A stretch of 64,000 nt of DNA from Bacillota bacterium (GTDB lineage Bacteria > Bacillota > Sulfobacillia > JAJZYS01 > JAJYTV01): positions 44,993 to 108,992 of the forward strand of contig JAJYSJ010000003.1 of the NCBI GenBank assembly GCA_021793645.1. Direction: 5' to 3'. The position numbers and the translations under genes were made by a program. Each line of letters opens with the position of its first letter. The first letter of the stretch is position 1. The notes beneath the pieces are model-generated. The model did no database searches. It had not been told where the DNA came from and saw only the letters and a list, made by a program, of their open reading frames with translations. Positions 29,751-58,613 of this stretch are shown here, one piece after another.

Positions 29751-29775
29751 GGCCGCACTTCAGGTGCGGCCTTTC
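29751..29775 (+). terminator. Putative intrinsic terminator after the PG-binding gene
   Basis: GGCCGCAC-TTCAG-GTGCGGCC followed by TTTCC. Confidence 0.5.
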
Positions 29776-29866
29776 CACATTCATCTGCAGGATCGATCTT
29801 GCCGCAGCGACGTAACTGCGGCTTAACCGAGAGAATGTCGAGGCCACGATGTAGCGCCGAGGCTTA

Positions 29867-31620: not shown

Positions 31621-31688
31621 CCCGGTCTTGTGCAGTCTGCAGGAGGCGGAGGGGCCGTTCTCGTACAATCAGGTGGAGGTGGCAACGA

Positions 31689-33032: not shown

Positions 33033-33075
33033 ATCACCCCAAAGAGCATTTACCCTCCGTAAAGTGCAATACCAG
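33032..33075. repeat. Right attachment junction of the element
   Basis: Element arm AATCACCCCAAAGAGCATTTACC + C + TC + host arm CGTAAAGTGCAATACCAG. Confidence 0.85.
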
Positions 33076-42628: not shown

Positions 42629-43369
42629 CTAGCCCAGCCCGAAATGCTCGCGCAGGCGGCGTGCATTCGCCCGGCTGACGGGTACTTCTTCGCGGCTGCC
42701 CTTCAGTCGCAGCGTGTAGGTGCCGTTGAAGAACGGCACGATCTCCGCAATAGCGTTCAGATTGACGATGTACCCGCGGTGGCAGCGGAAGAACTCCTGA
42801 TCGGGGAGCGTGTCCTGCAGGTCGGCCAAGGTGGCCCGCACCTGCAGGCGCCTTCCTTGGGTGACCAGAAACACCTGGTCCCCCTCCGCGACCAGATAGC
42901 TGACCTCCGCCAGCGGAACTGGGACGGCGCGGTCACCTTGGACTCCCGCGAGAAAGCGCGGCGCGGCCGGAGCTGGTGTGCCAACCAGGTCCTGCTGCGC
43001 TCCACCCCGCAAATGGCGCAGCCGCTCAAGCGTCTCCGCGAGGCGCTCCTTGGAGACCGGCTTCAGCAGATAGTCCACCGCGCCCAGTGAGAAGGCCGGC
43101 AGGGCGTGTGCGTCGTGCGCCGTGACGAAGACGACGTAGGGAGGCCGCAGTCTCCCCTGGTGGAGCTTCTGTGCAAGTTCAAGACCGCTCGCCGACGGCA
43201 TTTGGATGTCGAGGAACAGCACGTCGTACTCGACGGCACGGATCAGTTCCTGGGCCTCGCGCACGTTCGCCGCCTCCCCGATCACCTCGACATCCGGGTG
43301 GCGCTCCAATTGGTAGCGCAGCTCGGCACGGGCAGGCGGCTCGTCATCGACGATCAGGGCGCGCAGCAT
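42629..43369 (-). CDS. LytTR-family response regulator
   Basis: VDDEPPAR, FLDIQMP, YLLKP; LytTR FFRCHRGYIVN...PVSR. Confidence 0.93.
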   Translation of the reverse strand: MLRALIVDDEPPARAELRYQLERHPDVEVIGEAANVREAQELIRAVEYDVLFLDIQMPSASGLELAQKLHQGRLRPPYVVFVTAHDAHALPAFSLGAVDYLLKPVSKERLAETLERLRHLRGGAQQDLVGTPAPAAPRFLAGVQGDRAVPVPLAEVSYLVAEGDQVFLVTQGRRLQVRATLADLQDTLPDQEFFRCHRGYIVNLNAIAEIVPFFNGTYTLRLKGSREEVPVSRANARRLREHFGLG

Positions 43370-44478
43370 CAGTCTTCCTCCGGCAGTTCAAAGGGCAGGC
43401 GCACCAGCACCACAGTCCCCCGCCCCGGGCGGCTGCGCAGGCGAATCTGCCCGCGGCTGCCATAGAGCGCATGCAGCCGCTCATGGACGTTCGCGATGCC
43501 AAGTCCCATCCCCGTGCCTTCGTGCGGCAAGAAGAGGCGGCGCAGACGCGCGCGAGTGATGCCGACCCCGTCGTCGACTACCGCCATCTGCAATTCGACG
43601 CCGCGGCGGCGCAAGGAGACGAGAAGCTGCCCATGGCCGTCCTTGGGCGCAAGGCCGTGGACGATCGCGTTCTCCACGAGAGGCTGCAGAGCGAGGACGG
43701 GGATCAGGGCGGTCTCTACCCCCTGCTCCATCTGCAAGCGCACGGCAATCCGGTCACCGAAGCGAGCCTGCTCAAGGCGCAGGTACTGATGCACGAAGGC
43801 GAGTTCCTCGACGGCGCGGATCTTCTCACCGCGGTAGCTGATCGTATGGCGCAGAAATGCCGCGAGTTCCGTTAGCAGTTCGCGTGCGAGGTCCGGATCG
43901 AACCGGCTGGTGGCGATCACCGTATTCAGCGTGTTGAACAGGAAGTGCGGCCGAATCTGCGCCTGAAGCGCTTCCAGCCTAGCCTGCGCCAGCAGTTCCT
44001 TCTGGCGTTCCACTTCGGACAGTTCGGCCTGCAGCGAAAGGAGTTCCGAGATGCCGATCGCGAGGCGCGTCGCATAGCCGGGCATCGGGCCCGGGTGCTC
44101 GGCGTAGAGCTTGACCGTTCCGACGACCTCTCCTTGCACCTTGAGCGGTGCAATCACTGCTGCCTGCACGGCGCAGGGGCAGCCGGCGATGGGACAGTGC
44201 AGGTCCTGCTTGCGCTCGATGAGCGCGACTTCGCCTGTGCGCAGCACCTGCCGCGTTGCCTTCGTCTGGACCGGCTGGCCCGGCCGCATGTAAGGGCAGC
44301 CCGCACCCTCGTAGGCGAGGATGCGAGCGCTGTCGGTGATCGCCACCGCCTGCACGTGCGCGACGCCAAGCACGATGCGTGCGATGCGCTCCGCCGTCTC
44401 GCGCGTCAGCCCGGCCCAGTAGCCGCGTGCGGCGCGGATCGCCAGTGCGATGTCGAGCGGGCTCACGGGCTCGCCCAT
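43369..44478 (-). CDS. LytS/YehU-type histidine kinase lacking the membrane sensor (GAF plus kinase)
   Basis: LQAQIRPHFLFNTLN, LQPLVENAIVHG, DDGVG, GIANVHERL; no TM segment. Confidence 0.88.
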   Translation of the reverse strand: MGEPVSPLDIALAIRAARGYWAGLTRETAERIARIVLGVAHVQAVAITDSARILAYEGAGCPYMRPGQPVQTKATRQVLRTGEVALIERKQDLHCPIAGCPCAVQAAVIAPLKVQGEVVGTVKLYAEHPGPMPGYATRLAIGISELLSLQAELSEVERQKELLAQARLEALQAQIRPHFLFNTLNTVIATSRFDPDLARELLTELAAFLRHTISYRGEKIRAVEELAFVHQYLRLEQARFGDRIAVRLQMEQGVETALIPVLALQPLVENAIVHGLAPKDGHGQLLVSLRRRGVELQMAVVDDGVGITRARLRRLFLPHEGTGMGLGIANVHERLHALYGSRGQIRLRSRPGRGTVVLVRLPFELPEED

Positions 44479-44506: not shown

Positions 44507-45694
44507 CTATTCTAGGGCGCCCCGCGCCCGGGGGAAAGACTCTTGGGATCCATCCGGCAGGAGCGCCTTCCGGTAGAGCGCCTCGATCTCCTCGGCGCCC
44601 GCCAGGCGCGGGTTGTGCTGTGGACTGCCGCTTCGTAGGGCGTCGCGCGCCATCTGCGGTGCAAGGCGCCCAAGCCGCGCATCATCGATGCCGAAGGAGG
44701 CAGGATCCGGCAGGCTGCAAGCGGTGCAGATCCGTGCCACTAGCTCTGTTGCCGCCGTGCTCTCCTCCCCGAGCGCCTGAGCGATGCGGGCATAGCGCTC
44801 CGGCGCGGCCGGCAGGTTGAACTCCACGACCGTTGCAAGCAGTAGCCCATTTGCCACGCCGTGCGGCACGCCGAAGCAGGCTCCCAGCGGTCGCGCCATG
44901 CCATGCACCAGAGCGACAGACGCATTGGAAAAGGCCATGCCTGCCTGGAGTGCCCCCAGCATCAGTTCACCCAAGTCCTCCGCTTGCGCCTCGCCCTTGG
45001 CGGCACGCGCGAGATGCGGCGCGAGATGTCTGATCGCCGCGAGCGCCAGGTCGTCCGTCAGGGGCTGCGCCGCGTCAGAGACGAACGCCTCGATCGCGTG
45101 CGTCAGGGCATCCACGCCGGCCCCCGCCGCGGCGGCCGGGGGCGCGGAGAGAAGGAGCTCGGGATCCAGGATGGCAGTCCGTGGAACCAGCAGCGGGCTG
45201 CCGATCAGCATCTTCACCTGCGACCCGTCGTCGCCCGGGCGGGTCACCACGGTGAAGCGCGTCACCTCGGAGCCGGTGCCGGCTGTCGTCGGAATGGCGA
45301 GGACGGGCAGTGCCGCGCGCACCTTGTCCTGCCCCTCGCAGTCTGTGATCGGAGACCGGGTCGCGAGCTGCACCGCGATGGCCTTCGCCGCATCGAGCGC
45401 GCTTCCCCCACCGATGCCGACGACGAGGTCCGCACCCAGCGTGCGCCCGACGAGCGTTCCCTCGTCGACATGAGAGACATGAGGCTCCGCCGAGATACCA
45501 CTGTAGGCTTCGGCCTGCAGTCCGGCCAAGCGAAGGAGGTCCACTGCCGCACCGGCGCGACCGAGAGCAGCCGTCTTGGGGCCGCTGACGACGAGGGCGC
45601 GGCGTCCGAGCCGCACTGCCTCTGCGCCTAGTTCGCGGATCCCGCCCTCGCCGAAGCGCAGGCGAGGAGGCAGAAGGAATGTGCGGGGAAGCAT
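44507..45694 (-). CDS. Iron-containing alcohol dehydrogenase
   Basis: GGGSALDAAK, PTTAGTGSEVT, DALTHAIE, HG...PHG Fe ligands. Confidence 0.92.
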   Translation of the reverse strand: MLPRTFLLPPRLRFGEGGIRELGAEAVRLGRRALVVSGPKTAALGRAGAAVDLLRLAGLQAEAYSGISAEPHVSHVDEGTLVGRTLGADLVVGIGGGSALDAAKAIAVQLATRSPITDCEGQDKVRAALPVLAIPTTAGTGSEVTRFTVVTRPGDDGSQVKMLIGSPLLVPRTAILDPELLLSAPPAAAAGAGVDALTHAIEAFVSDAAQPLTDDLALAAIRHLAPHLARAAKGEAQAEDLGELMLGALQAGMAFSNASVALVHGMARPLGACFGVPHGVANGLLLATVVEFNLPAAPERYARIAQALGEESTAATELVARICTACSLPDPASFGIDDARLGRLAPQMARDALRSGSPQHNPRLAGAEEIEALYRKALLPDGSQESFPRARGALE

Positions 45695-46563
45695 CAGCGC
45701 ATCTCCATTCCGCCAGAGATGTTGAGCGCCTGCCCCGTCATCCCGCGCGAAGCGTCGCTGACCAGGAAGAGTGCGAGGTCGGCAAACTCCTCCGCCTCCG
45801 GAATGCGGCGCAGCGCCGCCATGCGCACCATCTTGTCGCGGATCGCTTCAAAGGGGATGCCGCGGCGGTGCGCGCGTTCACGCCAGACGCGCTCGATGCG
45901 CTCACCCGCGATCGGTCCCGGGCAGATCGCGTTCACCCGGACGCCGTAGCGGCCCACCTCGTGCGCCAGGCTCTGCGTCAGACCGATGAGCGCCCACTTG
46001 GCTGCCGCATACGGCGTTCGGTAGGGATAGGCGCGCTTGCCGAAAATCGAAGACACGTTGAGGATATTTCCCCGGCCGCGCTGCATCATGCCAGGCAGCA
46101 CTGCCTTGGCGCAGAGAAATGCGCTGGTGAGGTCCACTGACAGGGTGCGCTCCCAGTCCTCCACGCTAATCTCGTGCAGGGGCGCGGTGGGGCCGGAGAC
46201 GCCAGCGTTGTTGACCAGGATGTCGACCTGGCCGAACTCCCGCAGGGCGCGATCGAAGAGTCGCTCCACCTGCTCTGGACTGCCTACGTCGGTCGGAACG
46301 GCGAGCGTCTCGACGCCGTGTTCTTTCAGGGACGAGGCTGCGTTCGCCAAGGACTCCTCGCTGCGCGCGGCCAGCACGAGGTGCGCTCCCTCTCGGGCGA
46401 ATGCAGCCGCCGCGGCGAGACCGAGACCCCCGTTCCCACCTGTGATCACCGCAACCCGATCCTGTAGCCGCAATCGCGGTGCGCTCGCTACGCCCTCGCC
46501 CAGTTCCACTTCCTCCCGCGGCAGGGGCACAGCCTCCAGGACTTCCCACTCGCCCATCGCCAC
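45694..46563 (-). CDS. SDR oxidoreductase resembling the N-terminal domain of malonyl-CoA reductase
   Basis: TGGNGGLG, NNAG, NVSSIF...YPYRTPYAAAK, RVNAICPGPI.GERI, GMEM end. Confidence 0.85.
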   Translation of the reverse strand: MAMGEWEVLEAVPLPREEVELGEGVASAPRLRLQDRVAVITGGNGGLGLAAAAAFAREGAHLVLAARSEESLANAASSLKEHGVETLAVPTDVGSPEQVERLFDRALREFGQVDILVNNAGVSGPTAPLHEISVEDWERTLSVDLTSAFLCAKAVLPGMMQRGRGNILNVSSIFGKRAYPYRTPYAAAKWALIGLTQSLAHEVGRYGVRVNAICPGPIAGERIERVWRERAHRRGIPFEAIRDKMVRMAALRRIPEAEEFADLALFLVSDASRGMTGQALNISGGMEMR

Positions 46564-46826
46564 GCCTATTCCCTCCCGCCGGTCCTCGGTCTTGTCATCC
46601 GTAGCCTAGGAGACCAAAACGCCGCCGCCAACGGGCGGACGGCGAACGGGCGGTAGCGGGCGGTGGACGGCATCACCGCGGCAGTGGATGGAACGCAGCG
46701 CACTTTTCGACCGGCCGTCACCCGAGATGACGCTTCACCGGCGTCTGCCCCCCGCTTGCCGGCTTGGCGTTCCCTCCGATGGCATGCCGTGATATGTTGC
46801 GGGCAAGTGTAAGGAGGTGGGCATCC

Positions 46827-49800
46827 TTGCCCCCAGGCGAAGTGCGGCAGCAGACGAACGGCCAGGATCTTGGTCCGCGAACCAATCCGTATGCAGACCC
46901 TGCAGCCTTTGCCGCAGCCCGCCGTAGAGCCGCCGAGGACCCCGGCGCGTTCCACGGGGACATCGCGATCGGTGAAATGCATTTCTTCGACCCTGGGATC
47001 GGGGCGTGGATCCGCCGTCAGGAGAACGGCCGGTTCGAGGCGATCTATCCAGACGGTCACGTCGCCGACTCAGGACTCGGACCAGACTACCGGCCCTGGC
47101 GCGTCGCCTTCGACGACGCGCTTGCACCCTACTTCCGCTGGTTTCTCGGTGCTCAGACGAATGCTTGCTTCAACGAAGTGGACCGCCACGTCGCGCTTGG
47201 ACGCGGCGACGAGATTGCCTTTCACTTCGAGGGCGACCGCTGGGATCCGACTGCGCTGGGCGGCCGCGGCGCGCCGCAGGTTGCGCTTCGGGTCACGCGC
47301 AAGCGCCTTCTCCTGGAGGTGGCGAAGGCGGCTCTCGTGCTGCAGCGCCTTGGTCTAAAGCGCGGAGACCGCATCGTCCTCAACCTGCCGAACATCCTGC
47401 CGCAGATCTACTACACCGAGGCGGCAAAGCGCCTCGGAATCATCTACACGCCTGTATTTGGCGGCCTCAGCGCCAAGACGGTGTCGGACCGGCTAGAGGA
47501 CCTTGGCGCTTGCGCAATGGTCACCGCTGACGGCGGCTACCGCAATGCGCAGATCGTGCCGTATAAGGAAGCGTACGCAGACCCCGCGCTGGACGGCTTC
47601 AGAGCAGTGCGCACGCTGCGGCTGGGGGCGCAGGAAGTGCTGTCGAGTCTGCCGCAGGATGTGCAGGCGCGGCTTTTGGCTGTGCTCGAGCAGGGATTCG
47701 CCGGAGAGATCACCATGGCGCCAAAGGACGCGATGCGGGTCTTCGGCCGGGCCCTCGACGAGGCAGGCGCGCAACTGCCCAGCGATCAACGGGCAGCACT
47801 GCGCATGAGGGCCGCGACGACCTTCGCCTCGCCGGTCAGACGAGTCGACTTTGTCCTCGTTGTGCGGCACACGCGACAGGAGATCCCGTGGCGCCCCGAG
47901 CGCGATGTCTGGGCGCACGAACTCGAGGCGCAGGCCGCCTCTGCTCTTTTGTCCAGCGCACGTTCCGCAGGCTTTGCCGCCGCGGACGAGGAGCAGCTGC
48001 TCGCGCTGGCAGACCAGGACTTCTTGCGCGCGATCTGGGCATCCAGTCTCCCGGAGCCCGTCGAAGCGAACTTTCCGCTCTTCGCGATCTACACGTCGGG
48101 CAGCACCGGCAAGCCGAAGGGGGTCGTTCACGTCCACGGCTACCTCGGAGGACTTGCGCACACCATGCGTGCAGCCTTCGGTGCGCATCCTGGTGACGAC
48201 GTCCTCTACGTGATCGCCGACCCTGGCTGGATCACCGGCCAGTCCTACATGATCGCCGCAGCCCTCGCAGCGCGCATCCCCAGCGTCGTCGCGGAAGGGG
48301 CGCCTGTCTTCCCGACGGCGGGACGCTTCGCGAGCATCATCGAGCGCTACGGCGTGACGATCTTCAAGGCGGGCGCGACGTTCCTCAAGGGCATCCTCGC
48401 CGACCCCGCGGCTCAGGATGAGGTGCGCCGCTACGATACAGCGTCGCTCCGCGTCGCTACCTTCTGCGCCGAGCCCGTCAACCCAGTCGTGCAGCGCTTC
48501 GCGATGGATCTCCTCTGCGAGGCGTACGAGAACTCCTACTGGGCCACGGAGCACGGCGGCATCGTCTGGACCCACCCTTACCGGAACCCCGATGCCCCTG
48601 TGCGACCGGACGCACATACGTACCCGCTGCCTTGGGTGCAGGGCGATGTCTGGGTCGAGACCGGCGCGCAGCCGGACGGGCGCCGCCAGCACCGCAGGGC
48701 GCAGGATGGCGAAAAGGGCGAGATCGTGCTCAAAGCGCCGTATCCGTACCTTGCGCGTACGGTCTGGGGCGACCCGGACCGCGTGCTTGCCCCAGAATGG
48801 CGCGGCGACGCAGAGCGCTGGGCCAAAACGTACTGGACGCGGTGGGCAGACACGCTCGCTTACACGCAAGGCGACTTCGCCTGCCGCTATGCGGATGGAT
48901 CGTTCACCCTGCACGGCCGCTCTGACGACGTGATCAACGTGGCGGGCCACCGCATCGGGACAGAGGAGATCGAGGGAGCCATCTTGCGCGATCGCCAGCG
49001 CAATCCGGCCTCCCCCGTGCGCAACGCAGTCGTGATCGGAGCGCCGCATCAGGAGAAGGGCCTGGTGCCGGTCGCGTTTGTGCAGACTGCACTCGGCCGC
49101 CCGCTGACGGATCAGGACCGCATGCGCCTCGATCAGTTGGTGCGCAGCGAGAAGGGCGCCGTGGCCGTACCGGGCGACTACATCGCGGTGCAGGAGTTCC
49201 CGGAGACGCGCAGCGGCAAGTATATGCGGCGGCTGCTCGCAGACCTTCTGCGGGGCGAGGCGTCGGGGGATACCACGTCGCTGCGCAATCCGGAGTCGCT
49301 GACCGCGATCCGCCCCCTCGTCGATCGCTGGCGGGAGCGCGAAGCGCTGCGCGCGAGCCAACAGGTGATCGAACGCTTCCGCTACGTGCGTGCGCAGTAC
49401 CTCACCGCGGCGCCAGGCCGTGAAGTGGCGCTGGTGACAGTCGAAAGCCCGCCCGTCAACGCGCTGAACGAGCGCACGCTCGACGAACTGCTCACGCTGG
49501 TCGACCGACTGGCGCAGCGTGAAAGCGTCGCAGCCGTCGTCTTTACCGGCGCGCGTGGCTTCGTCGCTGGTGCTGACGTGCGTCAACTACTGGAGGAGAT
49601 GCAGGAGGCGGGCGACGTGCTGCCCCTCTCCCACAAGGCGCAGCGACTCTTCTCCGCGATCGAGGGCATGGGCAAACCCGCCGTCGCCGCTGTGCGCGGC
49701 GTCGCCCTGGGTGGTGGCAACGAGTTCCAGATGTCAACGCATTACACGGTAGCGGAGCCGGACGCGCAGTTCGGCCAGCCGGAAATCAACCTGCGCCTCT

Positions 49801-52214
49801 TGCCCGGGTACGGAGGGACCCAGCGCCTTGTACGCCTGCTGCACGCGGCAAGCGGCGTGCACGGCGTCATCGAGGCGTTGCGTCTGATCCTCGGCGGCCG
49901 CACCCTGGATGCCCAAGCGGCACTGCGCATCGGGCTCGTGCACGAGGTGGCGCATGAGACCGATGCGCTGTCGCGCGCGCTCGCCCTGGCGCGCGGCCAT
50001 GCGCGCGGCGAGGATGACACTCTTGCCAAGGCGCTTTCGCGGCGCCGGGCCCTCGTCGCGACATACGATCAGCCGCTCGTACTCCCCACGGACCTCCTGG
50101 AAGACCAAGAACTCCTGCGCATCCTTGCACAACTTGCGGCCACGGGACGCGGGGAGGCGGCGAATCGGACACTCGATGCGGTCCGCACCGGTCTCATGCA
50201 GGGGACCGGCGCAGGCCTGCGCGCCGAGGCGGATCACTTCGCCCAAGCCGTTGTCGACCCCCAAGGCGGACGCCAAGGCATACGCGACTTCCTTGACCGC
50301 GTCAGCCCCAACCTGCCGACCCGTGCACCAGGCGTCGGGCCCAAGGATGCCCCCGCGGAACTCGAGGCGCGGGGTGATCTTTTGCCTCCCGGCAGCCCAT
50401 TCTACCCAGGCTTCACTCCTCTGCCCCTCTGGCAGTACGCCTACGGCGTCCGCCGCGATCCCGAGACGGGGGCGCCGCGCCATGGGGACCCCCTGCAGGC
50501 GGAGGAGCGCATGATCGTGCCAGTGGAGGTAATCGCGTCGGATGAGGCGCTCGTCTACATGCTGGCGAGCGACGTCAACTTCAACGACATCTGGGCGGCG
50601 ACAGGCATTCCCGTCTCCCCCTTCGACAGCCACGACGAGGATGTCCACATCAGCGGCAGCGGCGGCGTTGGACTGGTAGTCGCGCTTGGCGAGGCGCTGC
50701 GCCGCGAAGGTCGGCTGGAGATCGGGCAGGTCTGCGTCGTCTATCCGGGGCAGTCCGACCCCTTCTCGCCAGACGCCGGTCTGGACCCGATGGCAGCGAA
50801 CTTCCGCATCCAGGGCTACGAGACGCCGGACGGCAGCCACCGCCAGTTCCTCAAAGTGCAGGGAGCGCAGCTCCTGCCAAAGCCGGAGGGTGCGAGCCTC
50901 GAAGCGAGTGCAGGCTACCTGCTCGCACTCGGAACCGTCTACCGAGCCCTCTACACCACCCTGCGCGTTGCACCCGGAGGGCTCTTGTTCTCCGAAGGAG
51001 CTGCGACAGGCACGGGGCTCGAGGCCGTGAAGGCTGCCTCCCGCGACGGGGTGGCGGTCGCAGGCATGGTCTCCAGCGACGCACGTGAACGCGCAGCCCG
51101 CGAGGCAGGCGCAAGTGTCGTGGTGCGCCGCGACGCACCGGAACTGCAGGGCATCTTCACGCCGGTGCCAGAGAACGCTGCACTATGGCATGCGTGGGAA
51201 GTGCAAGGCGAACCGTTCGTGGCGGCCCTTCGCGCCCAGGGGAAGGGGCGGCTGCCAGACTACGTGCTCTCCCACGCCGGAGAAACCTCGTTCCCGCGCA
51301 GTTTCCAGGCGCTCGCCCCAGGCGGCCGCCTCGCTTTCTTCGGTGCCTCCTCCGGCTACCACTTCACCTTCATGGGCAGGCCGGGCTTCCTTACCGCCGA
51401 CGCCGCAGCGAGACGCGCAGAACTGCGCTCGGGCGACGCGGTGATGGTCTACTACGGCGTTGGCAGCGACGACGTCGAAGACCCTGTCGGCCTTGAACTC
51501 GTCGAGGCGGCACGTGTATGCGGCGCTCGCATCGCCCTTTGGACCCGCACGGACGCCCAGGCCGAGTTCGTGCAAAGCCTTGGATACGGCGACGCCCTTG
51601 CGGGCGCCGTCAGCCTTGAGGAGATCATGCGCCGCCGGGGCGACGGGTTCATCTGGCCCAGCACCATGCCGCCGCTGCCGGATCCCAGGCAAGAGACCGC
51701 CGCGTTCAAGGAAGCCGTACGCCGGTTTCAGGAATTCACCTTCAAGCCCGTGGGAGAGGCGATCGGCAAGCTGCTGCGGGGGCCGCGCAACCCCCGCGGT
51801 CAGCCGGACGTCATCTTCGAACGCGCCAGCCACGACGCTCTTGCAGTCAGCGTGATGCTGGTCCGGCCCCTGACGGGGCGAGTCGTCTACTGTGAGGAGA
51901 CGGCAGGCCGCCGCTACAGCTTCTTCGCTCCTCAGGTCTGGATGCGCCAGCGCCGCATTCTCCTGCCGAATGCGGAGATCCTCGGCACGCACCTGTGCAA
52001 CTCCTACGAGGCGCAAGAGGTTACGAGGGATGTGGCCGCAGGCCGTTTCCAACTGACCGAACCCGTCCTTGTACCGTTCGATGGGCTGCCGCAAGCGCAT
52101 CAGGAGATGTGGGAGAACCGACACGCAGGCGGCAGCTACGTCGTCGATCATGCACTTCCGCGCAGCGGCCTGAAGAGCGTAGATGAACTGTATGCCGCCT
52201 GGGCGCAGCGCTGA
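46827..52214 (+). CDS. pcs: Trifunctional propionyl-CoA synthase (acyl-CoA synthetase + enoyl-CoA hydratase + enoyl-CoA reductase), about 1,795 aa
   Basis: ACS motifs YTSGSTGKPKG, FCAEP, YWATEHGG, ETRSGK; crotonase PPVNAL, FVAGAD, GGGNE, GQPEINL..LPGYGGTQR; MDR/CCR-like DVNFNDIWA, GYETPDGS, GAATGTG, MWENRH. TTG 46827 after AAGGAGGTG. Confidence 0.9.
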   Translation: MPPGEVRQQTNGQDLGPRTNPYADPAAFAAARRRAAEDPGAFHGDIAIGEMHFFDPGIGAWIRRQENGRFEAIYPDGHVADSGLGPDYRPWRVAFDDALAPYFRWFLGAQTNACFNEVDRHVALGRGDEIAFHFEGDRWDPTALGGRGAPQVALRVTRKRLLLEVAKAALVLQRLGLKRGDRIVLNLPNILPQIYYTEAAKRLGIIYTPVFGGLSAKTVSDRLEDLGACAMVTADGGYRNAQIVPYKEAYADPALDGFRAVRTLRLGAQEVLSSLPQDVQARLLAVLEQGFAGEITMAPKDAMRVFGRALDEAGAQLPSDQRAALRMRAATTFASPVRRVDFVLVVRHTRQEIPWRPERDVWAHELEAQAASALLSSARSAGFAAADEEQLLALADQDFLRAIWASSLPEPVEANFPLFAIYTSGSTGKPKGVVHVHGYLGGLAHTMRAAFGAHPGDDVLYVIADPGWITGQSYMIAAALAARIPSVVAEGAPVFPTAGRFASIIERYGVTIFKAGATFLKGILADPAAQDEVRRYDTASLRVATFCAEPVNPVVQRFAMDLLCEAYENSYWATEHGGIVWTHPYRNPDAPVRPDAHTYPLPWVQGDVWVETGAQPDGRRQHRRAQDGEKGEIVLKAPYPYLARTVWGDPDRVLAPEWRGDAERWAKTYWTRWADTLAYTQGDFACRYADGSFTLHGRSDDVINVAGHRIGTEEIEGAILRDRQRNPASPVRNAVVIGAPHQEKGLVPVAFVQTALGRPLTDQDRMRLDQLVRSEKGAVAVPGDYIAVQEFPETRSGKYMRRLLADLLRGEASGDTTSLRNPESLTAIRPLVDRWREREALRASQQVIERFRYVRAQYLTAAPGREVALVTVESPPVNALNERTLDELLTLVDRLAQRESVAAVVFTGARGFVAGADVRQLLEEMQEAGDVLPLSHKAQRLFSAIEGMGKPAVAAVRGVALGGGNEFQMSTHYTVAEPDAQFGQPEINLRLLPGYGGTQRLVRLLHAASGVHGVIEALRLILGGRTLDAQAALRIGLVHEVAHETDALSRALALARGHARGEDDTLAKALSRRRALVATYDQPLVLPTDLLEDQELLRILAQLAATGRGEAANRTLDAVRTGLMQGTGAGLRAEADHFAQAVVDPQGGRQGIRDFLDRVSPNLPTRAPGVGPKDAPAELEARGDLLPPGSPFYPGFTPLPLWQYAYGVRRDPETGAPRHGDPLQAEERMIVPVEVIASDEALVYMLASDVNFNDIWAATGIPVSPFDSHDEDVHISGSGGVGLVVALGEALRREGRLEIGQVCVVYPGQSDPFSPDAGLDPMAANFRIQGYETPDGSHRQFLKVQGAQLLPKPEGASLEASAGYLLALGTVYRALYTTLRVAPGGLLFSEGAATGTGLEAVKAASRDGVAVAGMVSSDARERAAREAGASVVVRRDAPELQGIFTPVPENAALWHAWEVQGEPFVAALRAQGKGRLPDYVLSHAGETSFPRSFQALAPGGRLAFFGASSGYHFTFMGRPGFLTADAAARRAELRSGDAVMVYYGVGSDDVEDPVGLELVEAARVCGARIALWTRTDAQAEFVQSLGYGDALAGAVSLEEIMRRRGDGFIWPSTMPPLPDPRQETAAFKEAVRRFQEFTFKPVGEAIGKLLRGPRNPRGQPDVIFERASHDALAVSVMLVRPLTGRVVYCEETAGRRYSFFAPQVWMRQRRILLPNAEILGTHLCNSYEAQEVTRDVAAGRFQLTEPVLVPFDGLPQAHQEMWENRHAGGSYVVDHALPRSGLKSVDELYAAWAQR

Positions 52215-52253: not shown

Positions 52254-52607
52254 ATGCAATACACCGCAATCGTGACCGACGACCTCTTCCTGGGTACGAA
52301 GGCGCAGGACATCCTGCGCCGTGCCGGAATAGCGGCCCGGCGCACGGCTCCGGGAGCGCTTGACGCGGCGGACCCGGCACCGGCCGTGGTGGTGCTGGAC
52401 CTCGGACTGCCCCTGGAGAAGCGCGTCCAGGTCGTGCACTGGGCACAGGACAAAGCGCCTGTCGTAGCCTTTGGCCCGCACGTCGACGCGGAGTCGCTCT
52501 TTTGGGCGCGACAGGCCGGCTGTGCGGCAGTGTTGACCAAGGGCCAATTGGAAGCGCGCCTTGCCCGCGCCGTCGCTGGCGCACTGCCCGCCGATGCACC
52601 ACCTTGA
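52254..52607 (+). CDS. Single-domain receiver-like protein
   Basis: IVTDDLF...VVVLDL...AFGPHVD...AGC.AVLTK. Confidence 0.6.
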   Translation: MQYTAIVTDDLFLGTKAQDILRRAGIAARRTAPGALDAADPAPAVVVLDLGLPLEKRVQVVHWAQDKAPVVAFGPHVDAESLFWARQAGCAAVLTKGQLEARLARAVAGALPADAPP

Positions 52608-53188
52608 CACTGCCGTTTGACGCCCGCGCAGCCGCGCGGGCGCTTGCGTCCTCTCGTAGGATCGCCGTGATCGGAGCACCGGGTGCTGGCAAGTCCACCG
52701 CAGCGCGGGCGCTCGCAGAGTACCTTCCGCTCCCGCTCCACCACCTGGATCGCCTGTACTGGCGACCGGGTTGGCAGCCGACGCCGCCGGACGAATGGCA
52801 GGCGGTGCAGCGCGCACTCGTGCAAGCACCGCGCTGGATCATCGACGGCAACTATGGCGACACCCTCGGCATCCGCCTTGCGAGAGCCGAGGCCGTGCTC
52901 TTCCTCGACCTCCCCGCACCGGTCTGCATCCGGCGCGTGCTCTGGCGCAGCCTGAGGCTGCACGGTCAGGTGCGGCAAGATCTGGGCGAAGGCTGCCCGG
53001 AACATTTCGACCCTGAATTCCTGCGCTTTGTCGCGAGATTTCGCCGCCACGTTCGCCCACAGCTACTCGCCCTGCACGCCGCTGCGCCGGCCGGCCAGGC
53101 GTGGATCGCTCCAAGCAGCTCTCGGGAAACGCATCTCCTCATGGCCGAGGTCCGCAGAATCTCGCGCTCGGCGGCCTCCGCGACCTAA
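52604..53188 (+). CDS. P-loop kinase, topology-modulation protein (FlaR)/adenylate-kinase-like
   Basis: IGAPGAGKST, HLDRLYWRPGW, WIIDGNYGDT; TTG 52604 overlaps the upstream stop. Confidence 0.82.
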   Translation: MTLPFDARAAARALASSRRIAVIGAPGAGKSTAARALAEYLPLPLHHLDRLYWRPGWQPTPPDEWQAVQRALVQAPRWIIDGNYGDTLGIRLARAEAVLFLDLPAPVCIRRVLWRSLRLHGQVRQDLGEGCPEHFDPEFLRFVARFRRHVRPQLLALHAAAPAGQAWIAPSSSRETHLLMAEVRRISRSAASAT

Positions 53189-53311
53189 CGCATGCTCTGG
53201 GCGGCAGGACATGCGAGTTGGCGTTCCGCCACCTGGCTCCCTCGACGGGTTGACTAGGCAGGGTGCGGCGCCGCGCATCTCCAATCCGGTTGCAAAAAGA
53301 GGGGACGGACG

Positions 53312-54364
53312 ATGCAGGATGCAACGGCACTTAGTCTTGTCGAACTCCTCCTGGCAGCGGGGGCTGGAATTTGCATTGAGATGGTTATCCACTGGGCCCT
53401 GCGACGCTTCTTACACCGGCGTAGCGCTGTCCATGCCTTGCTCAGGCGGACCGGCCGCGCTGCGCAGGCTGCCTTCGCGCTCAGCGTTGCGCTGATCATC
53501 AGCCCAGCGCTGCATTTCAGCCAGGGCGTCTCGGCAGTGTTGCATGAACTCGCAACACTATCGGCCCTGACAGTTGTCGCGTGGGTGCTCATCGTGCTCG
53601 TCTACGTCGCCGAGGAGATCGTGCAGACTCGGTTCGACGTCACGGTGCCTGACAATCTCGCTGCACGCAAGATTCTCACGCGGACCGGAGTAATCCGGCG
53701 CGTGATCGTTGCCATGATCCTCGTGCTGACCGGTTCGTCCGCGCTAATGACCTTTCCGGCAGTGCGCGCCCTGGGGGCAAGCCTGCTCGCGTCCGCCGGC
53801 CTTGTTGGGCTGATCGCCGGTCTTGCCGCTCAGCCTGTGCTGTCGAACCTGATAGCGGGTCTGCAGATCGCACTTACACAACCGATCCGCATCGATGACG
53901 TCGTGGTCATCAATGGCGACTGGGGGTGGATCGAGGAGATCGACACGACATTCGTTGTGGTGCGCATCTGGGATCTGCGCCGGCTGATCGTACCGCTAAC
54001 CTACTTCCTGCAAAACCCGATCGAGAACTGGACATACCACAGCGCCAGCATCATCGGATATGTGTACGTCTACGCCGACTATCGCGTCAGCGTCGATGCC
54101 GTTCGTGAGGAACTGCAGCGCATTCTTGCCGCAAGCCCGGACTGGGACACGAAATCCTGGAACCTGCAGGTCACCGGACTCGACGAGCAGGCCATGCAGA
54201 TGCGCGCTCTGTTCAGTGCGGCCGACTCCGGCCACCGCTGGAACCTCATGGTGGAGGTGCAGGAGAAGCTGATCGCATTCTTGCAGACGCAATATCCTGA
54301 ACACCTGCCGCGTACACGCGTTGAAATACGGCCGGAACCGCCTGTCAGACGCCCGGGCTCGTAA
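53312..54364 (+). CDS. MscS-family mechanosensitive channel
   Basis: LASAGLVGLIAGLAAQPVLSN, PIRIDDVV, GWIEEI, D.RRLIVP. Confidence 0.9.
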   Translation: MQDATALSLVELLLAAGAGICIEMVIHWALRRFLHRRSAVHALLRRTGRAAQAAFALSVALIISPALHFSQGVSAVLHELATLSALTVVAWVLIVLVYVAEEIVQTRFDVTVPDNLAARKILTRTGVIRRVIVAMILVLTGSSALMTFPAVRALGASLLASAGLVGLIAGLAAQPVLSNLIAGLQIALTQPIRIDDVVVINGDWGWIEEIDTTFVVVRIWDLRRLIVPLTYFLQNPIENWTYHSASIIGYVYVYADYRVSVDAVREELQRILAASPDWDTKSWNLQVTGLDEQAMQMRALFSAADSGHRWNLMVEVQEKLIAFLQTQYPEHLPRTRVEIRPEPPVRRPGS

Positions 54365-54878
54365 TCCCGTGGGGGTGCGGAGATCCCGTCGCACAAGCGG
54401 TAGGGCTATGGCGTGAACTGCTTCTCCGTATGACAGAAAGGGTCGCAAATCGAAAGACTCCGCGTACCGCCTGGCCCAAGTCCGCAGCCGCTTAACTCCA
54501 GCGAGACCTGTCGCCACCGGTTCGTCCAATCCCGTATCCTACGCTGCGGTCTGCGTGGCAGAATAGAGGCGTCAGAGCGCGCGCCCAAGGCCGCCTGACG
54601 TTTACTCGCGCAGTCCAAGGCGTTCGCGGACTCGATGTTCGTTCATGTCCCTTGGCGTCCGAAGGCTTGACGGCGGAGCGGAAGCCTCGCCTCCGTGCAG
54701 TAGCAGGAATACTGGCCACCCATCCGAAAGCAGTTTCCTTAGGAGTTCCCTGCGAAATACGTCGGCGGGTCTTGCGCAAACGCGAGACGCGCATGCATGG
54801 GCATACAGGCGTTGATGCAAGCGAGCCCGTCTCAGAGCAATTGGAACCAAGACCTATTGAAGGGGCCCGAACGGCATT

Positions 54879-56849
54879 ATGCGCAAGCCCGTTATCCCTG
54901 AACCAGTTTTGATCATTCTCCTTGCGGTAGTGGTTGGAGTTGTCGGCGGCGTAGGCGCGGTCCTCTTCCGCCTGATGATCCAATACGCCCAGGTCGGTTT
55001 CCGGTGGCTGGCGGGCGCCTCCTTCCACATGCCGCACGTCACGGTCGCGATCATGCCGGTGCTTGGTCTTTTGGCGGTCGGGGTGATCTCAACCTACTTC
55101 GCCCGCGAGGTCAAAGGGCACGGCGTGCCACAGATCCTTGAGGCGCTCGCGCTGCGCGGAGGCCGCATCCGCCCGCGGGTCGGATTCTTCGGCATCCTGG
55201 CGCCGGCGCTCACGATCGGATCCGGCGGCTCGGTCGGCCGCGAGGGCCCGATCGCTCTCATCGGAGCTGCCTTCGGCTCGTCGCTCGGACAATCGCTGAA
55301 ATTGCCGGATCGCTACACGATGCTGCTCGTCGGCTGCGGCACTGCGGCCGGTATCGGTGCGACGTTCAACGCGCCGATCGCCGGCGCCCTGTTCGCCATG
55401 GAGGTCGTGCTGGGCAGCTACGCGATGGGCACGCTCGTCCCGTGCTTCGTGGCATCGGTCACCGGCGTGAGCGTCTTCAACCTCATCCTCGGCGACCACT
55501 TGGCGCTCACCGTACCGTCCGCGGCGTTCCACACGCCAGTTTCGCTTGTCCTGATGGGAGCCCTCGGCATCCTGGCCGGCCTGTTCGGCATCGCCTACAC
55601 GCGCGGCCTCACGTACTTTGAGGACCTCTTCGACAACTGGCACGCCAGCTTCTGGCAACGCGCCCTGGTCGGCGGCCTGTTCGTCGGGCTGCTGGGCCTC
55701 GTCGTGCCGCAGGTGCTGGGCGTCGGCTACGGCACGATGAACGCCGTGGCGACCGGCAAGATTTTCGGCATCATGGTGCTTTTGCTGCTTGTTGCGAAGT
55801 ACTTCGCAACACTGGTGACGATCGGCGCTGGAGGCTCAGGTGGCGTCTTCGCTCCGAGCCTGTTTCTCGGACTGATGCTTGGCACAGCGTTCGGCACGGT
55901 TGTACACGGACTCGCGCCTGGTACGTTTGCTCCGGCCAGCGTTTTCGGGGTCGCCGGCATGGGCGCGGTGTTCGCCGCGACGGCGCAGGCGCCGCTGACT
56001 GCCGCGGTGATCGTCCTCGAAATGACGGGCGACTACCGCCTTGCCATGGGCACCGTGCTGGCCTGCGCGCTCTCCTACTTCCTTTACGGCTCCATGCAGC
56101 GCGACACGATGTACACCGTACGCCTCAGCCGACGCGGCATCCGCATTCTGCGCGGCTCCGAAGTGCGGCCGCTGCAGTCGATGCTGGTGAAGACGGCGAT
56201 GAGGTCCCTGGAGACGCGCGTCGTCACGACCGATACCCTGCAGAGTGCCCAGCTCAGAATGGTGGAACTGCATGCAGACGCCCTCGTCGTGGAAGACGAG
56301 TACGGCGCCTACGCCGGCGTCCTTGAAGCCCCGACCGTTCTCGCGGCAACGGGCAAGGAGGGCCTGGACGCATTGGTGGGGTCGGTCTCGCTCAATCGCG
56401 TTCCGCCAGTATCGCAGGCAACCAACCTGGACGAGGCGATGCAGCGGTTCGCGCTGTATGACACCGACCTGCTCCCGGTCGCCGATCACCAGAAACTGCT
56501 AGGCCTGCTGACCCGCCGTGACGTTCTGCAGGCATACCAGACGCACACCACACTCAGCCTTGAAACGGATCGCAAGGTGGCACTGCTGCAGCAGGAGACC
56601 GGTAGTTCCGGAGCGTTCCAGTCGTTCGGGATCTCCCCTGGGAGTCCGATCATCGGCATCGCCATTCGCGACCTGCGCCTGCCGCAGAACACCCTGATCG
56701 TGGCCGTCGAGCGCGGTGCGACCGTCGTTGTCCCGCACGGCGACACGACAATCCAGGAGGACGACCGGGTGGTCGTCTACGCGAATCCACCAGCAGGCAT
56801 CGACGAAGTGCGCAAACTGCTCAGTTCCTCGCAGCGCGTCAAGGCTTAG
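54879..56849 (+). CDS. CLC chloride channel/antiporter with tandem CBS and C-terminal TrkA-C domains
   Basis: GHGVP, GREGP, FNAPIAGALFAMEV, GGVFAP; CBS pair; LIVAVERG..PHGDTTIQEDD. Confidence 0.92.
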   Translation: MRKPVIPEPVLIILLAVVVGVVGGVGAVLFRLMIQYAQVGFRWLAGASFHMPHVTVAIMPVLGLLAVGVISTYFAREVKGHGVPQILEALALRGGRIRPRVGFFGILAPALTIGSGGSVGREGPIALIGAAFGSSLGQSLKLPDRYTMLLVGCGTAAGIGATFNAPIAGALFAMEVVLGSYAMGTLVPCFVASVTGVSVFNLILGDHLALTVPSAAFHTPVSLVLMGALGILAGLFGIAYTRGLTYFEDLFDNWHASFWQRALVGGLFVGLLGLVVPQVLGVGYGTMNAVATGKIFGIMVLLLLVAKYFATLVTIGAGGSGGVFAPSLFLGLMLGTAFGTVVHGLAPGTFAPASVFGVAGMGAVFAATAQAPLTAAVIVLEMTGDYRLAMGTVLACALSYFLYGSMQRDTMYTVRLSRRGIRILRGSEVRPLQSMLVKTAMRSLETRVVTTDTLQSAQLRMVELHADALVVEDEYGAYAGVLEAPTVLAATGKEGLDALVGSVSLNRVPPVSQATNLDEAMQRFALYDTDLLPVADHQKLLGLLTRRDVLQAYQTHTTLSLETDRKVALLQQETGSSGAFQSFGISPGSPIIGIAIRDLRLPQNTLIVAVERGATVVVPHGDTTIQEDDRVVVYANPPAGIDEVRKLLSSSQRVKA

Positions 56850-57427: not shown

Positions 57428-57943
57428 CTAGAATGCCTCCTCCTCCGGCTCCGCTTGCGCCAGTTCGGGCAAGTCGGCAAGCGACCCAAGGTTGAAGCGA
57501 CGCAAAAACTCGCCGGTGGTGCCGTAAAGCGGTGCGCGTCCAATGCCCTGCGAGCGGCCCACGACCTCGATCAGGCCGAGTTCCAGCAGCGTCTGAACCG
57601 TGCGTTCGGAGCGCACCCCGCGCACTTCGTCGATCTCGGCGCGCGTGACGGGCTGGCGGTAGGCGACCAGTGCGAGGGCCTCCAGCGCCGCTGCAGAAAT
57701 CTCTCCAGGCGCCGCAGGCAGGCGGTCCGAAAGGTATGCGCCGAGATCCGGAGCCGTCGTCAGGCTCACCTCGCCATCGTGCCAGGAAAGCACGATGGCG
57801 TGCCCTTCGAGCCGCTGCTCCAGTTCGCCAAGCAGCACGCGCACCTCAAGCGCCGTCGTACCCAAATGACGGGCGATGGCGTCCTCACTGTGCGACCCCC
57901 CGCTGGCAAAGAGAAATCCCTCGAGTTCGCGCCAGCTAGCCAC
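57428..57943 (-). CDS. scpB: SMC-Scp complex subunit ScpB
   Basis: LEGFLFASG, AALEALALVAYRQPVTRAEIDEVRGV, LYGTTGEFLRRFNL; GTG 57943. Confidence 0.92.
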   Translation of the reverse strand: MASWRELEGFLFASGGSHSEDAIARHLGTTALEVRVLLGELEQRLEGHAIVLSWHDGEVSLTTAPDLGAYLSDRLPAAPGEISAAALEALALVAYRQPVTRAEIDEVRGVRSERTVQTLLELGLIEVVGRSQGIGRAPLYGTTGEFLRRFNLGSLADLPELAQAEPEEEAF

Positions 57944-58613
57944 GATGCTCTTCCTCCTGGGCCACCAGATAGAGGGGTCCGTATAGGCGCTCCTGATCGA
58001 TGCCCGCTTCACCGAGGCGCGTCAGCTCCAGCGCCCCAAGCACCTCGAGGATGCCTTCGCGCCGCGTGCGCTCCGGCGCCGCGATGCGCAGCCTGCGCTC
58101 TTCGCGCAGCGCACGGCGCAAGGTCTGCAGGACGCGCCGGAACGCGAGCCGCGGTCTCGTTTTCAGCCGTGCCCTGCGCCCCAACCGGCGGGCGCGCCGC
58201 TGGACGCGCTCCATCGCTTCGACGAGGATGATCGGTGGGTATGACGCCAGCGGCGCACGCGCAGGGTGGCGAAAGACTGCCTGCCGTACTCGCCGGCGCA
58301 GGAACGGCACCCCGATCTGAACCTCAGGTGCATCCTGCGCCCGGGGCACCGTGGCGGCCTCCTCGTCATCATCGTCGAGGTTCCACTCGCCTCTCTGCCA
58401 CGCGGCCTTCAGGCGAATGAGACGTGCCGAGAGGACCGCGAAGTCTCCGACGTCGGCCAGCGGCAGATCCTCGGCGCCGCGAATCTCCTCCTGGAACGCC
58501 CGAGCGATGCGACTGAGGGAGATGTCTGGCAACGGCAGATCGCGCTCGAGGCACAGGCTGACCAGCAGCTCCAGCGGCCCCTGGTAACGCTCCTGCTGCA
58601 CCCGAAACTCCAT
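57936..58613 (-). CDS. scpA: Segregation and condensation protein ScpA
   Basis: YQGPLELLVSL, DFAVLSARLIRLKA, LGALELTR...QERLYGPL; ATG 58613. Confidence 0.85.
   Translation of the reverse strand: MEFRVQQERYQGPLELLVSLCLERDLPLPDISLSRIARAFQEEIRGAEDLPLADVGDFAVLSARLIRLKAAWQRGEWNLDDDDEEAATVPRAQDAPEVQIGVPFLRRRVRQAVFRHPARAPLASYPPIILVEAMERVQRRARRLGRRARLKTRPRLAFRRVLQTLRRALREERRLRIAAPERTRREGILEVLGALELTRLGEAGIDQERLYGPLYLVAQEEEHRG

What the first reader, a model, noticed from the sequence alone, without database searches (positions are those of the whole stretch)
46827..52214. Full-length trifunctional propionyl-CoA synthase in a spore-forming Bacillota genome
Seen: one ~1,800-aa ORF with synthetase, crotonase and reductase domains in the Pcs order. 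Known: Pcs converts 3-hydroxypropionate to propionyl-CoA in the Chloroflexus 3-HP bicycle and occurs in some proteobacteria; I do not know of it as a typical Bacillota gene. Inference: horizontally acquired 3-HP or acrylate assimilation, or part of a partial 3-HP carbon-fixing route.
Basis: partly seen in the sequence, partly recalled or inferred. Interest (0 to 1): 0.75.

Follow-up and report, generated by a model that had tools for sequence, protein, structure and literature searches.

The report
Propionyl-CoA synthase in uncultured spore-former
The window really does encode an intact three-in-one enzyme (propionyl-CoA synthase) that turns 3-hydroxypropionate into propionyl-CoA, sitting natively in the chromosome of an uncultured, spore-forming Bacillota lineage; this extends a known enzyme to a new host group, with no sign of a carbon-fixation pathway.

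Summary
Observation confirmed. ORF 46827-52214 (+) encodes 1,795 aa with acyl-CoA ligase, enoyl-CoA hydratase and Ccr-like reductase domains. It aligns end to end with the solved Erythrobacter Pcs (6EQO, 2018 bits), and every catalytic motif checked is intact.

The contig is a genuine endospore-former chromosome, with PrkA, SpoVR and YtfJ on one side and SpoVAD, SigF and DacF on the other. All close relatives are unnamed MAGs.

Pcs was found at the same site in three related genomes (77-81% identity). A more distant sister lacks the whole block Pcs/SDR/Fe-ADH/MscS/ClC there, so the block was gained or lost within the lineage. No donor is visible: the protein is 44-55% identical to all other Pcs compared, and its composition matches the host.

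Unlike the Bdellovibrionota MAG and a metagenome contig, which have mcr directly upstream of pcs, no malonyl-CoA reductase is present in the window. The carbon-fixation reading therefore has no support. Stand-alone assimilation or detoxification of 3-HP or acrylate is most likely.

Full-length Pcs also occurs on haloarchaeal megaplasmids and, as partial proteins, in MAGs named to many groups, so Bacillota is a modest extension: a new member of a known kind.

Side finding: a ~14.1-kb serine-recombinase element splits the sporulation gene yhbH.

The parts
46827..52214 (+). pcs: trifunctional propionyl-CoA synthase, 1,795 aa, TTG start
   Evidence: domain order, end-to-end match to 6EQO, all motifs intact.
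46827..49316 (+). Pcs ligase domain (aa ~1-830), 3-HP-CoA synthetase. Motifs: YTSGSTGKPKG 422-432, YWATEHGG 571-578, GRSDD 697-701, A10 Lys798. Includes the Pcs-specific insert at ~250-410.
49398..50186 (+). Pcs dehydratase (crotonase) domain (aa ~858-1120). Oxyanion-hole motif FVAGADV 912-918; catalytic Glu966 and Glu986 (Glu986 aligns with E1027 of 6EQO).
50412..52214 (+). Pcs reductase domain (aa ~1196-1795), Ccr-like MDR. Motifs: VNFNDIW 1250-1256, GAATGTG 1391-1397, His1722.
46564..46826 (.). Divergent intergenic region between the SDR gene and pcs. Holds the conserved RBS and start, plus repeated (A/G)ACGG(G/A)CGG motifs.
   Evidence: 83% mean column identity with L001 over the aligned 46540-46850 stretch. 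No sigma-70-like promoter was found by the simple scan.
45694..46563 (-). Classical SDR oxidoreductase (289 aa), divergent from pcs. Candidate 3-hydroxy-acid / malonate-semialdehyde oxidoreductase (inferred).
   Evidence: FabG / 3-hydroxybutyrate-DH-like. Conserved next to pcs in L001 (79% identity). Absent from the syntenic site in L016/L017.
44507..45694 (-). Iron-containing alcohol dehydrogenase (395 aa). Candidate 3-HP / malonate-semialdehyde or 1,3-propanediol oxidoreductase (inferred).
   Evidence: Best PDB relatives are methanol DH, 1,3-propanediol oxidoreductase and FucO. Conserved in L001 (70% identity). The family includes the Nitrosopumilus malonic semialdehyde reductase (PMC5797428).
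42629..44478 (-). GAF/His_kinase sensor (43369-44478) and LytTR response regulator (42629-43369). These are ancestral neighbours, not specific to Pcs.
   Evidence: The same pair (70% and 62% identity) sits at the syntenic site in L016/L017, which lack Pcs.
52502..56849 (+). Rest of the variable block downstream of pcs: small P-loop protein (52502-53188), MscS channel (53312-54364), ClC channel (54879-56849).
   Evidence: Conserved with pcs in L002 and L018/L019. Replaced by a peptidase S9 gene in L016/L017.

Best explanation
The gene encodes a functional propionyl-CoA synthase. In one polypeptide it activates 3-hydroxypropionate with ATP and CoA (ligase), dehydrates 3-HP-CoA to acrylyl-CoA (crotonase), and reduces that with NADPH to propionyl-CoA (Ccr-like reductase). 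By analogy with the Erythrobacter enzyme, the toxic acrylyl-CoA stays inside an enclosed chamber. In this uncultured, probably thermophilic, spore-forming Bacillota lineage it acts as a stand-alone module, independent of Mcr, for assimilating or detoxifying 3-HP or acrylate. It may be fed by the two co-inherited dehydrogenases next door. The block lies in a variable chromosomal site between conserved sporulation/ScpB genes and a two-component system, and was most likely gained by an old horizontal transfer. Shown here: the architecture, collinearity, motifs, native chromosomal context and patchy distribution. Inferred: the substrate, the physiological role, the involvement of the SDR and Fe-ADH, and the direction of the gain/loss event.
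For: The end-to-end 2018-bit match to the solved Pcs 6EQO comes, with 54% identity in the C-terminal 812 residues. All ligase, crotonase and reductase motifs are conserved in the window and in four other Pcs compared. Sporulation genes lie on both sides of pcs on one contig, and GC and GC3 are uniform. Pcs is kept at the same site, at 77-81% identity, in L001, L002 and L018/L019, with neighbours at 64-91%. The block is absent at the same site in L016/L017. No Mcr is in the window, whereas L003 and L008 carry mcr directly upstream of pcs. An mcr-less Pcs also occurs on a megaplasmid of a cultured haloarchaeon.
Against: There are no biochemical data. The rest of the genome is unseen (the contig is 235 kb, and only 64 kb is visible), so an mcr or bicycle genes elsewhere cannot be excluded. 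The SDR and Fe-ADH have only generic family assignments, and their linkage to pcs is seen only among close relatives. Loss in the sister lineage explains the distribution as well as gain does. No propionyl-CoA-consuming pathway was identified in the window.
Confidence: 0.72

Rival explanations
1. Pcs works with the adjacent Fe-ADH and/or SDR as an Mcr-independent reductive route. Malonate semialdehyde (from beta-alanine, uracil or a separate malonyl-CoA reductase) would be reduced to 3-HP and then converted to propionyl-CoA. Alternatively, 1,3-propanediol or 3-hydroxypropanal would be funnelled into 3-HP. This refines the best explanation rather than excluding it.
For: The SDR and Fe-ADH are divergently adjacent to pcs and are conserved with it in L001. 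They are missing together with pcs in L016/L017. The Fe-ADH family contains the characterised Nitrosopumilus malonic semialdehyde reductase (PMC5797428). The closest solved relatives include 1,3-propanediol oxidoreductase.
Against: All family hits are below the equivalog cut-offs and are generic. The apparent Mcr similarity of the SDR is an artefact of two domains scoring ~95 bits each. No Fe-ADH lies near pcs in L003, L004 or L005, nor in the annotated haloarchaeal locus. No aldehyde dehydrogenase or transaminase lies nearby.
Confidence: 0.25
2. The gene is part of a full or partial autotrophic 3-hydroxypropionate bicycle in this Bacillota organism.
For: Pcs is a signature enzyme of the bicycle. 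The rest of the genome is unseen.
Against: No Mcr-sized ORF exists in the 64 kb. None of mcl/mch/mct/meh appeared among the scanned ORFs. Relatives that pair the two genes place mcr immediately upstream of pcs, and this lineage does not. The literature regards isolated Pcs/Mcr outside Chloroflexota as organic-substrate assimilation (PMC9802188).
Confidence: 0.06
3. The enzyme has a shifted substrate range, for example acrylate or other short 3-hydroxy or enoic acids. It would serve mainly to detoxify acrylate or acrylyl-CoA rather than to assimilate carbon.
For: The architecture suits the sequestering of reactive enoyl-CoA. The sequence is only 44-55% identical to the other Pcs compared.
Against: The catalytic and binding motifs compared are identical or nearly so across the Pcs set. 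Nothing in the sequence points to a changed pocket.
Confidence: 0.12
4. Contamination or a chimeric contig: the pcs gene does not belong to the Bacillota genome.
For: The source is probably a MAG.
Against: Sporulation genes flank pcs on both sides within one window. The composition is uniform. The same junctions (pcs-MscS-ClC-DUF2953-ScpB-SpoVA, and SDR-FeADH-HK-LytTR) recur in independent assemblies.
Confidence: 0.02

Closest known systems
Propionyl-CoA synthase of Erythrobacter sp. NAP1 (PDB 6EQO)
   Same: Same three domains in the same order and a similar length (1,795 vs 1,850 aa). One collinear alignment at 2018 bits. Catalytic Glu (E1027 = E986 here), the A10 Lys, the NADPH motif, and the D1302 and H1769 equivalents are all conserved.
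   Different: About 54% identity over the C-terminal 812 aligned residues. The host is a Gram-positive spore-former. No mcr was found nearby. Met replaces Thr at the position of T1753, as it does in most other Pcs compared.
Chloroflexus aurantiacus Pcs of the 3-hydroxypropionate bicycle
   Same: Same enzyme family. A Chloroflexus partial Pcs is 49-51% identical over the N-terminal 420 aa.
   Different: There is no evidence of the bicycle here. The Bacillota sequences are not nested in the Chloroflexota clade in the rough tree.
mcr-pcs operons (Bdellovibrionota MAG L003, metagenome contig L008, Parachlamydiales MAG L004)
   Same: Full-length Pcs at 50-54% identity.
   Different: Those loci have a ~1,200-aa multi-SDR protein directly upstream of pcs. 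In L003 it matches bifunctional malonyl-CoA reductase at 926 bits to 8HI4. In L008 a 1,163-aa tandem-SDR protein was seen by Pfam only. L004 has a 955-aa ORF with weak SDR hits and a frameshifted pcs, and was not verified. The window has only a single-domain SDR and an Fe-ADH on the opposite strand.
Stand-alone Pcs on haloarchaeal megaplasmids (Natronococcus, Natribaculum, Natrinema)
   Same: Full length, 51-53% identity over 99% of the query. No adjacent mcr in the one locus inspected. Annotated only as 'AMP-binding protein'.
   Different: Archaeal host, plasmid-borne, different neighbours (malic enzyme, 2-oxoacid dehydrogenase E1).

Membership tests
Propionyl-CoA synthase (Pcs) | Single polypeptide of ~1,800 aa with acyl-CoA ligase, enoyl-CoA hydratase and enoyl-CoA reductase domains, in that order | tested here: met
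   Pfam and NCBIfam domain positions.
Propionyl-CoA synthase (Pcs) | End-to-end collinearity with a structurally and biochemically characterised Pcs, including the ligase insert and the inter-domain linkers | tested here: met
   6EQO_A: E=0, 2018 bits, query 24-1793 vs chain 25-1840 in one stretch. The C-terminal half re-aligned at 920 bits.
Propionyl-CoA synthase (Pcs) | Intact ANL-ligase core motifs, including the A10 catalytic lysine | tested here: met
   YTSGSTGKPKG, YWATEHGG, GRSDD, HRIGTEEIE and PETRSGK(798)YMRR are all present.
Propionyl-CoA synthase (Pcs) | Crotonase oxyanion hole and two catalytic glutamates | tested here: met
   FVAGADV, GGGNE(966)F and GQPE(986)INL. E986 aligns with E1027 of 6EQO.
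Propionyl-CoA synthase (Pcs) | Ccr-like MDR reductase with a nucleotide-binding glycine motif and conserved active-site Asp and His | tested here: met
   GAATGTG 1391-1397. D1254 and H1722 align with D1302 and H1769 of 6EQO. The functional roles of these residues are recalled from papers that are not held.
Propionyl-CoA synthase (Pcs) | Catalyses 3-HP + ATP + CoA + NADPH -> propionyl-CoA | not testable with these tools
   Needs an enzyme assay.
3-hydroxypropionate bicycle | Bifunctional malonyl-CoA reductase (Mcr), often directly upstream of pcs | tested here: not met
   No ORF above 1,000 aa other than pcs in the 64 kb. The SDR's similarity to Mcr is generic. L003 and L008 do have the upstream gene. 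The rest of the genome is not visible.
3-hydroxypropionate bicycle | Glyoxylate-assimilation genes (mcl, mch, mct, meh) | tested here: inconclusive
   None among the window ORFs scanned. Only 64 kb of the genome is available.

The most novel reading that the evidence does not exclude
This uncultured thermophilic spore-former lineage acquired a self-contained Pcs + Fe-ADH + SDR cassette. The cassette would form a previously undescribed, Mcr-independent route from malonate semialdehyde (or 1,3-propanediol / 3-hydroxypropanal) to propionyl-CoA. It would also supply a naturally thermostable Pcs useful for synthetic CO2-fixation and 3-HP pathways.
Probability: 0.2. Interest if true: 0.55.

Novelty: new member of a known kind. 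Interest (0 to 1): 0.33.

Why it matters
It adds endospore-forming Bacillota to the hosts of Pcs. Together with the haloarchaeal megaplasmid copies, it shows that stand-alone Pcs without an adjacent mcr is a recurrent, horizontally spread module for handling 3-HP or acrylate, not a marker of the 3-HP bicycle. That is a caution for surveys that use pcs as a carbon-fixation marker. Pcs and its ligase domain are used in engineered pathways (PMC11599936, PMC7289016). A variant from a probably thermophilic host (a crude IVYWREL estimate of ~58 C) could be a useful part. The biology itself is an incremental extension.

Tried and rejected
- **Full-length homologue search.** The search for homologous proteins timed out with the full-length Pcs and with its C-terminal 696 aa. 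The N-terminal 420-aa query worked but listed only proteins of 735 aa or less, mostly partial. Full-length relatives therefore had to come from the locus scans.
- **Exact-sequence look-ups.** Look-ups of the Pcs protein with an L or M start found nothing on record.
- **Mcr lead rejected.** The SDR's top PDB hit was Chloroflexus Mcr (8HJW). That score is the sum of two SDR domains at ~95 bits each, and a plain FabG scores higher per domain.
- **T1753 position.** The Met at the T1753-equivalent position looked like a possible carboxylase-type change. It is shared by the other four Pcs sequences aligned at that position, so it is not special.
- **Representative-library search.** It collapses Pcs into about four full-length 50%-identity clusters and gave no taxonomy.
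- **Metagenome scan.** It found no close relative (best 51%).
- **RNA and signal scans.** Rfam and tRNA scans of the window found nothing. The sigma-70 promoter scan found nothing upstream of pcs, and the terminator-like hits were uninformative.
- **Papers not held.** The primary Pcs structure and engineering papers are not in the library. Roles of individual residues are therefore from memory; only their conservation was tested.
- **Literature searches.** No report of Pcs in Firmicutes, Bacillota or Limnochordia was found.
Full report
**1. The observation**

The mechanical ORF runs 46764-52214 on the + strand. The RBS-to-TTG stretch is conserved in the closest full-length relative, L001. The product is 1,795 aa.

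Pfam places ACAS_N, AMP-binding and AMP-binding_C over roughly residues 88-798, ECH_1 at 866-1069, and ADH_zinc_N/ADH_zinc_N_2 at 1395-1768. NCBIfam's best models are acetate/propionate-CoA ligase, enoyl-CoA hydratase and crotonyl-CoA carboxylase/reductase, in that order.

Against the PDB, the only full-length match is 6EQO_A, the Erythrobacter sp. NAP1 propionyl-CoA synthase. The match has E=0 and 2018 bits, in one collinear stretch: query 24-1793 against chain 25-1840. Re-aligning the C-terminal 815 aa gave 920 bits, with 54% identity over the 812 aligned residues.

**2. Integrity of the enzyme**

I aligned the window protein with the homologues in L001, L002 (both Bacillota MAGs), L003 (Bdellovibrionota MAG) and L005 (Chlorobiales MAG). 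All the core motifs are conserved:
- Ligase: YTSGSTGKPKG, YWATEHGG, GRSDD, HRIGTEEIE, and PETRSGK798YMRR.
- Crotonase: oxyanion-hole motif FVAGADV and both catalytic glutamates (GGGNE966F, GQPE986INL).
- Reductase: glycine motif GAATGTG, VNFND1254IW, and GTH1722LCN.

By the alignment, E986, D1254 and H1722 correspond to E1027, D1302 and H1769 of 6EQO. That these are functionally important residues is my recollection of Bernhardsgrutter et al. 2018/2019. Those papers are not held, so only their conservation is a tested result. The Pcs-specific insert in the ligase domain (about 250-410) also aligns with 6EQO. Nothing suggests a pseudogene or a lost activity.

**3. The host and the contig**

The window is 58-70% G+C with no anomaly at pcs. 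GC3 of pcs is 0.79, against 0.73-0.82 for its neighbours.

Sporulation and cell-cycle genes lie on both sides of pcs:
- Left: DnaK, RodZ, PrkA (10219-12078), SpoVR (about 17477-18670), YtfJ (36399-36878).
- Right: ScpB (57428-58012), SpoVAD (59338-60360), SigF (61159-61902), and a DacF-like carboxypeptidase (62847-63992).

The host is therefore an endospore-former chromosome, and contamination is very unlikely.

The window's AsnRS and SpoVAD have only unnamed MAG relatives. For AsnRS there are a few clusters at 87-89% and 78-83%, then a drop to 64% or less, where a Limnochordales MAG and a 'Firmicutes bacterium' MAG appear among equally distant hits from other phyla. SpoVAD shows the same pattern (81-88%, then 65-70%, then 60% or less). 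The source contig is 235 kb. A crude IVYWREL estimate from 28 window proteins gives about 58 C (the formula is recalled from Zeldovich 2007), which hints at a thermophile.

**4. Distribution and history of the locus**

The scan of GTDB species representatives found two close relatives: L001 (77% identity, full length) and L002 (81%, partial). Both are titled 'Bacillota bacterium'.

L001 keeps the arrangement LytTR-HK-FeADH-SDR || Pcs, with neighbours at 70-88% amino-acid identity. L002 keeps Pcs-MscS-ClC.

I then walked from SpoVAD homologues into neighbouring DNA:
- L018/L019 (SpoVAD 88%) have ScpB-DUF2953-ClC-MscS-small ORF-Pcs. The Pcs product is 1,799 aa and 80% identical over the 1,009 residues visible.
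- The more distant L016/L017 (SpoVAD 70%) have ScpB-DUF2953, then a peptidase S9 gene, then the orthologous HK (70%) and LytTR regulator (62%). They have no Pcs, SDR, Fe-ADH, MscS or ClC at that site.
- L014 (SpoVAD 82%) has a divergent ClC, MscS and an unrelated truncated gene at the contig end.

So pcs, the SDR and the Fe-ADH travel together inside a variable slot. The two-component system is an ancestral neighbour rather than a dedicated regulator. The pattern fits a gain in a genus- or family-level subclade, but loss in the sister is not excluded.

A rough NJ tree of the N-terminal 420 aa puts the Bacillota sequences on their own long branch. They are 44-52% identical to Chloroflexus, Dehalococcoidia, Sphingomonas, Halieaceae, Gemmatimonadota, Myxococcota and Natronomonas sequences. 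No donor can be named, and the gene's composition matches the host.

**5. What Pcs is paired with elsewhere**

In L003, a 1,214-aa ORF directly upstream of pcs is a bifunctional malonyl-CoA reductase (926 bits to Roseiflexus MCR 8HI4). L008 has a 1,163-aa tandem-SDR protein in the same position. L004 has a 955-aa ORF upstream with weak SDR hits and a frameshifted pcs, but that ORF was not checked.

The window has no ORF above 1,000 aa other than pcs. The adjacent 289-aa SDR first appeared to hit Chloroflexus Mcr best. That score is the sum of two domains of about 95 bits each, whereas a simple FabG scores 185 bits. It is therefore a generic classical SDR.

The 395-aa Fe-ADH is nearest to methanol dehydrogenase, 1,3-propanediol oxidoreductase and lactaldehyde reductase. 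This family also contains the Nitrosopumilus malonic semialdehyde reductase (PMC5797428), so a 3-HP/malonate-semialdehyde role is plausible but untested.

Full-length Pcs (51-53% identity, 99% coverage) also lies on megaplasmids of cultured haloarchaea. In the one locus inspected (Natronococcus) it has no adjacent mcr and is annotated only as 'AMP-binding protein'.

**6. Mechanism and role**

The most likely function is the canonical one. 3-HP is activated to 3-HP-CoA, dehydrated to acrylyl-CoA and reduced to propionyl-CoA within one enzyme. This serves heterotrophic use or detoxification of 3-HP or acrylate.

The carbon-fixation reading has no positive evidence. Published surveys likewise interpret isolated Pcs/Mcr outside Chloroflexota as substrate assimilation (PMC9802188).

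No propionyl-CoA-consuming pathway was recognised in the window. The carboxyltransferase at 5971-7494 sits in a cluster that looks like leucine catabolism, with an acyl-CoA dehydrogenase, HMG-CoA lyase and an enoyl-CoA hydratase.

**7. Novelty**

The held literature reports Pcs in Chloroflexota, Actinobacteriota, Alpha- and Gammaproteobacteria and Gemmatimonadota. My searches found no report for Firmicutes, Bacillota or Limnochordia.

However, database hits already span many groups, including Myxococcota, Bdellovibrionota, Parachlamydiales, Dehalococcoidia and haloarchaea. Adding Bacillota is therefore a modest extension: a new member of a known kind.

**8. Side finding: a split sporulation gene**

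The sporulation gene yhbH (DUF444) is split.
- Its 5' part (33894 to 33034, minus strand) ends in '...LHFTEGKCSLG*', exactly where a large serine recombinase gene (31770-33032) ends.
- Its 3' part ('...SPDGDNWGDSD...') lies at about 18915 to 18672, just upstream of spoVR.
- Joining the two parts in silico restores a contiguous match to DUF444 profile positions 208-415 (169 bits, against 127 bits for the 5' piece alone).
- A 23-nt inverted repeat (91% complementary) sits at both junctions, 14,102 nt apart (I8). This is the pattern expected of attP half-sites.
- The recombinase matches phage integrase phrog_95 and, below cut-off, XisF.

This looks like a skin-type intervening element in a target gene not named in the one review-type paper I read. 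That paper lists sigK, spsM, spoVFB and spoVR (PMC4191935), and a search listing adds gerE.

Noticed in passing
window 18672-33894 (junctions at ~18905 and ~33056): The sporulation gene yhbH (DUF444) is split by a ~14.1-kb element. The element carries a large serine recombinase (31770-33032) at one edge and 23-nt inverted repeats at both junctions (18907-18929 and 33032-33054). Joining the two pieces in silico restores a contiguous DUF444 match. It looks like a skin-like developmental intervening element. yhbH is not among the targets named in the one paper I read (sigK, spsM, spoVFB, spoVR) or in the gerE paper's title and abstract.
   Followed up: yes
window 23534-29704: Cargo of the element: a double BcrAD/BadFG-type acyl-CoA dehydratase activase (772 aa), a 939-aa DUF2229 protein, a protein with peptidoglycan-binding repeats that resembles an endolysin, and several ORFs with no Pfam or PHROG match. 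There is a low-GC stretch (0.585-0.63) at 18-24 kb.
   Followed up: partly
window 46620-46700: Repeated (A/G)ACGG(G/A)CGG motifs in the divergent SDR/pcs intergenic region, partly conserved in L001. This may be a regulator-binding site, perhaps for the neighbouring LytTR regulator.
   Followed up: no
L023 (Natronococcus sp. CG52 plasmid NZ_CP099392.1) 8950-14385; also hits H1 and H3-H5: Full-length Pcs homologues (51-53% identity) lie on megaplasmids of cultured haloarchaea. Where annotation is shown, they are labelled only 'AMP-binding protein'. The one locus inspected has no adjacent mcr.
   Followed up: partly
L003 6331-15490; L008 6491-15343; L004 1886-11614: mcr-pcs gene pairs occur in a Bdellovibrionota MAG and a metagenome contig. 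A possibly similar pair lies in a Parachlamydiales MAG, where pcs is broken into three ORFs by frameshifts and the upstream 955-aa ORF was not verified.
   Followed up: partly
representative hits P0251 (6,910 aa), P0253 (2,388 aa), P0282, P0288, P0298: Very large multidomain proteins contain a region matching the Pcs reductase domain at 28-41% identity. They may be PKS-like megasynthases with a Pcs/Ccr-type enoyl reductase.
   Followed up: no
window 4296-9047: A cluster of enoyl-CoA hydratase, HMG-CoA lyase, carboxyltransferase and acyl-CoA dehydrogenase that looks like leucine catabolism. The dehydrogenase's best NCBIfam model is the clostridial acryloyl-CoA reductase AcrC, but well below cut-off (407 vs 640 bits).
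   Followed up: no
window, 28 confirmed proteins: The IVYWREL fraction is 0.42, which gives a crude optimal growth temperature of about 58 C. This suggests a thermophilic host.
   Followed up: partly
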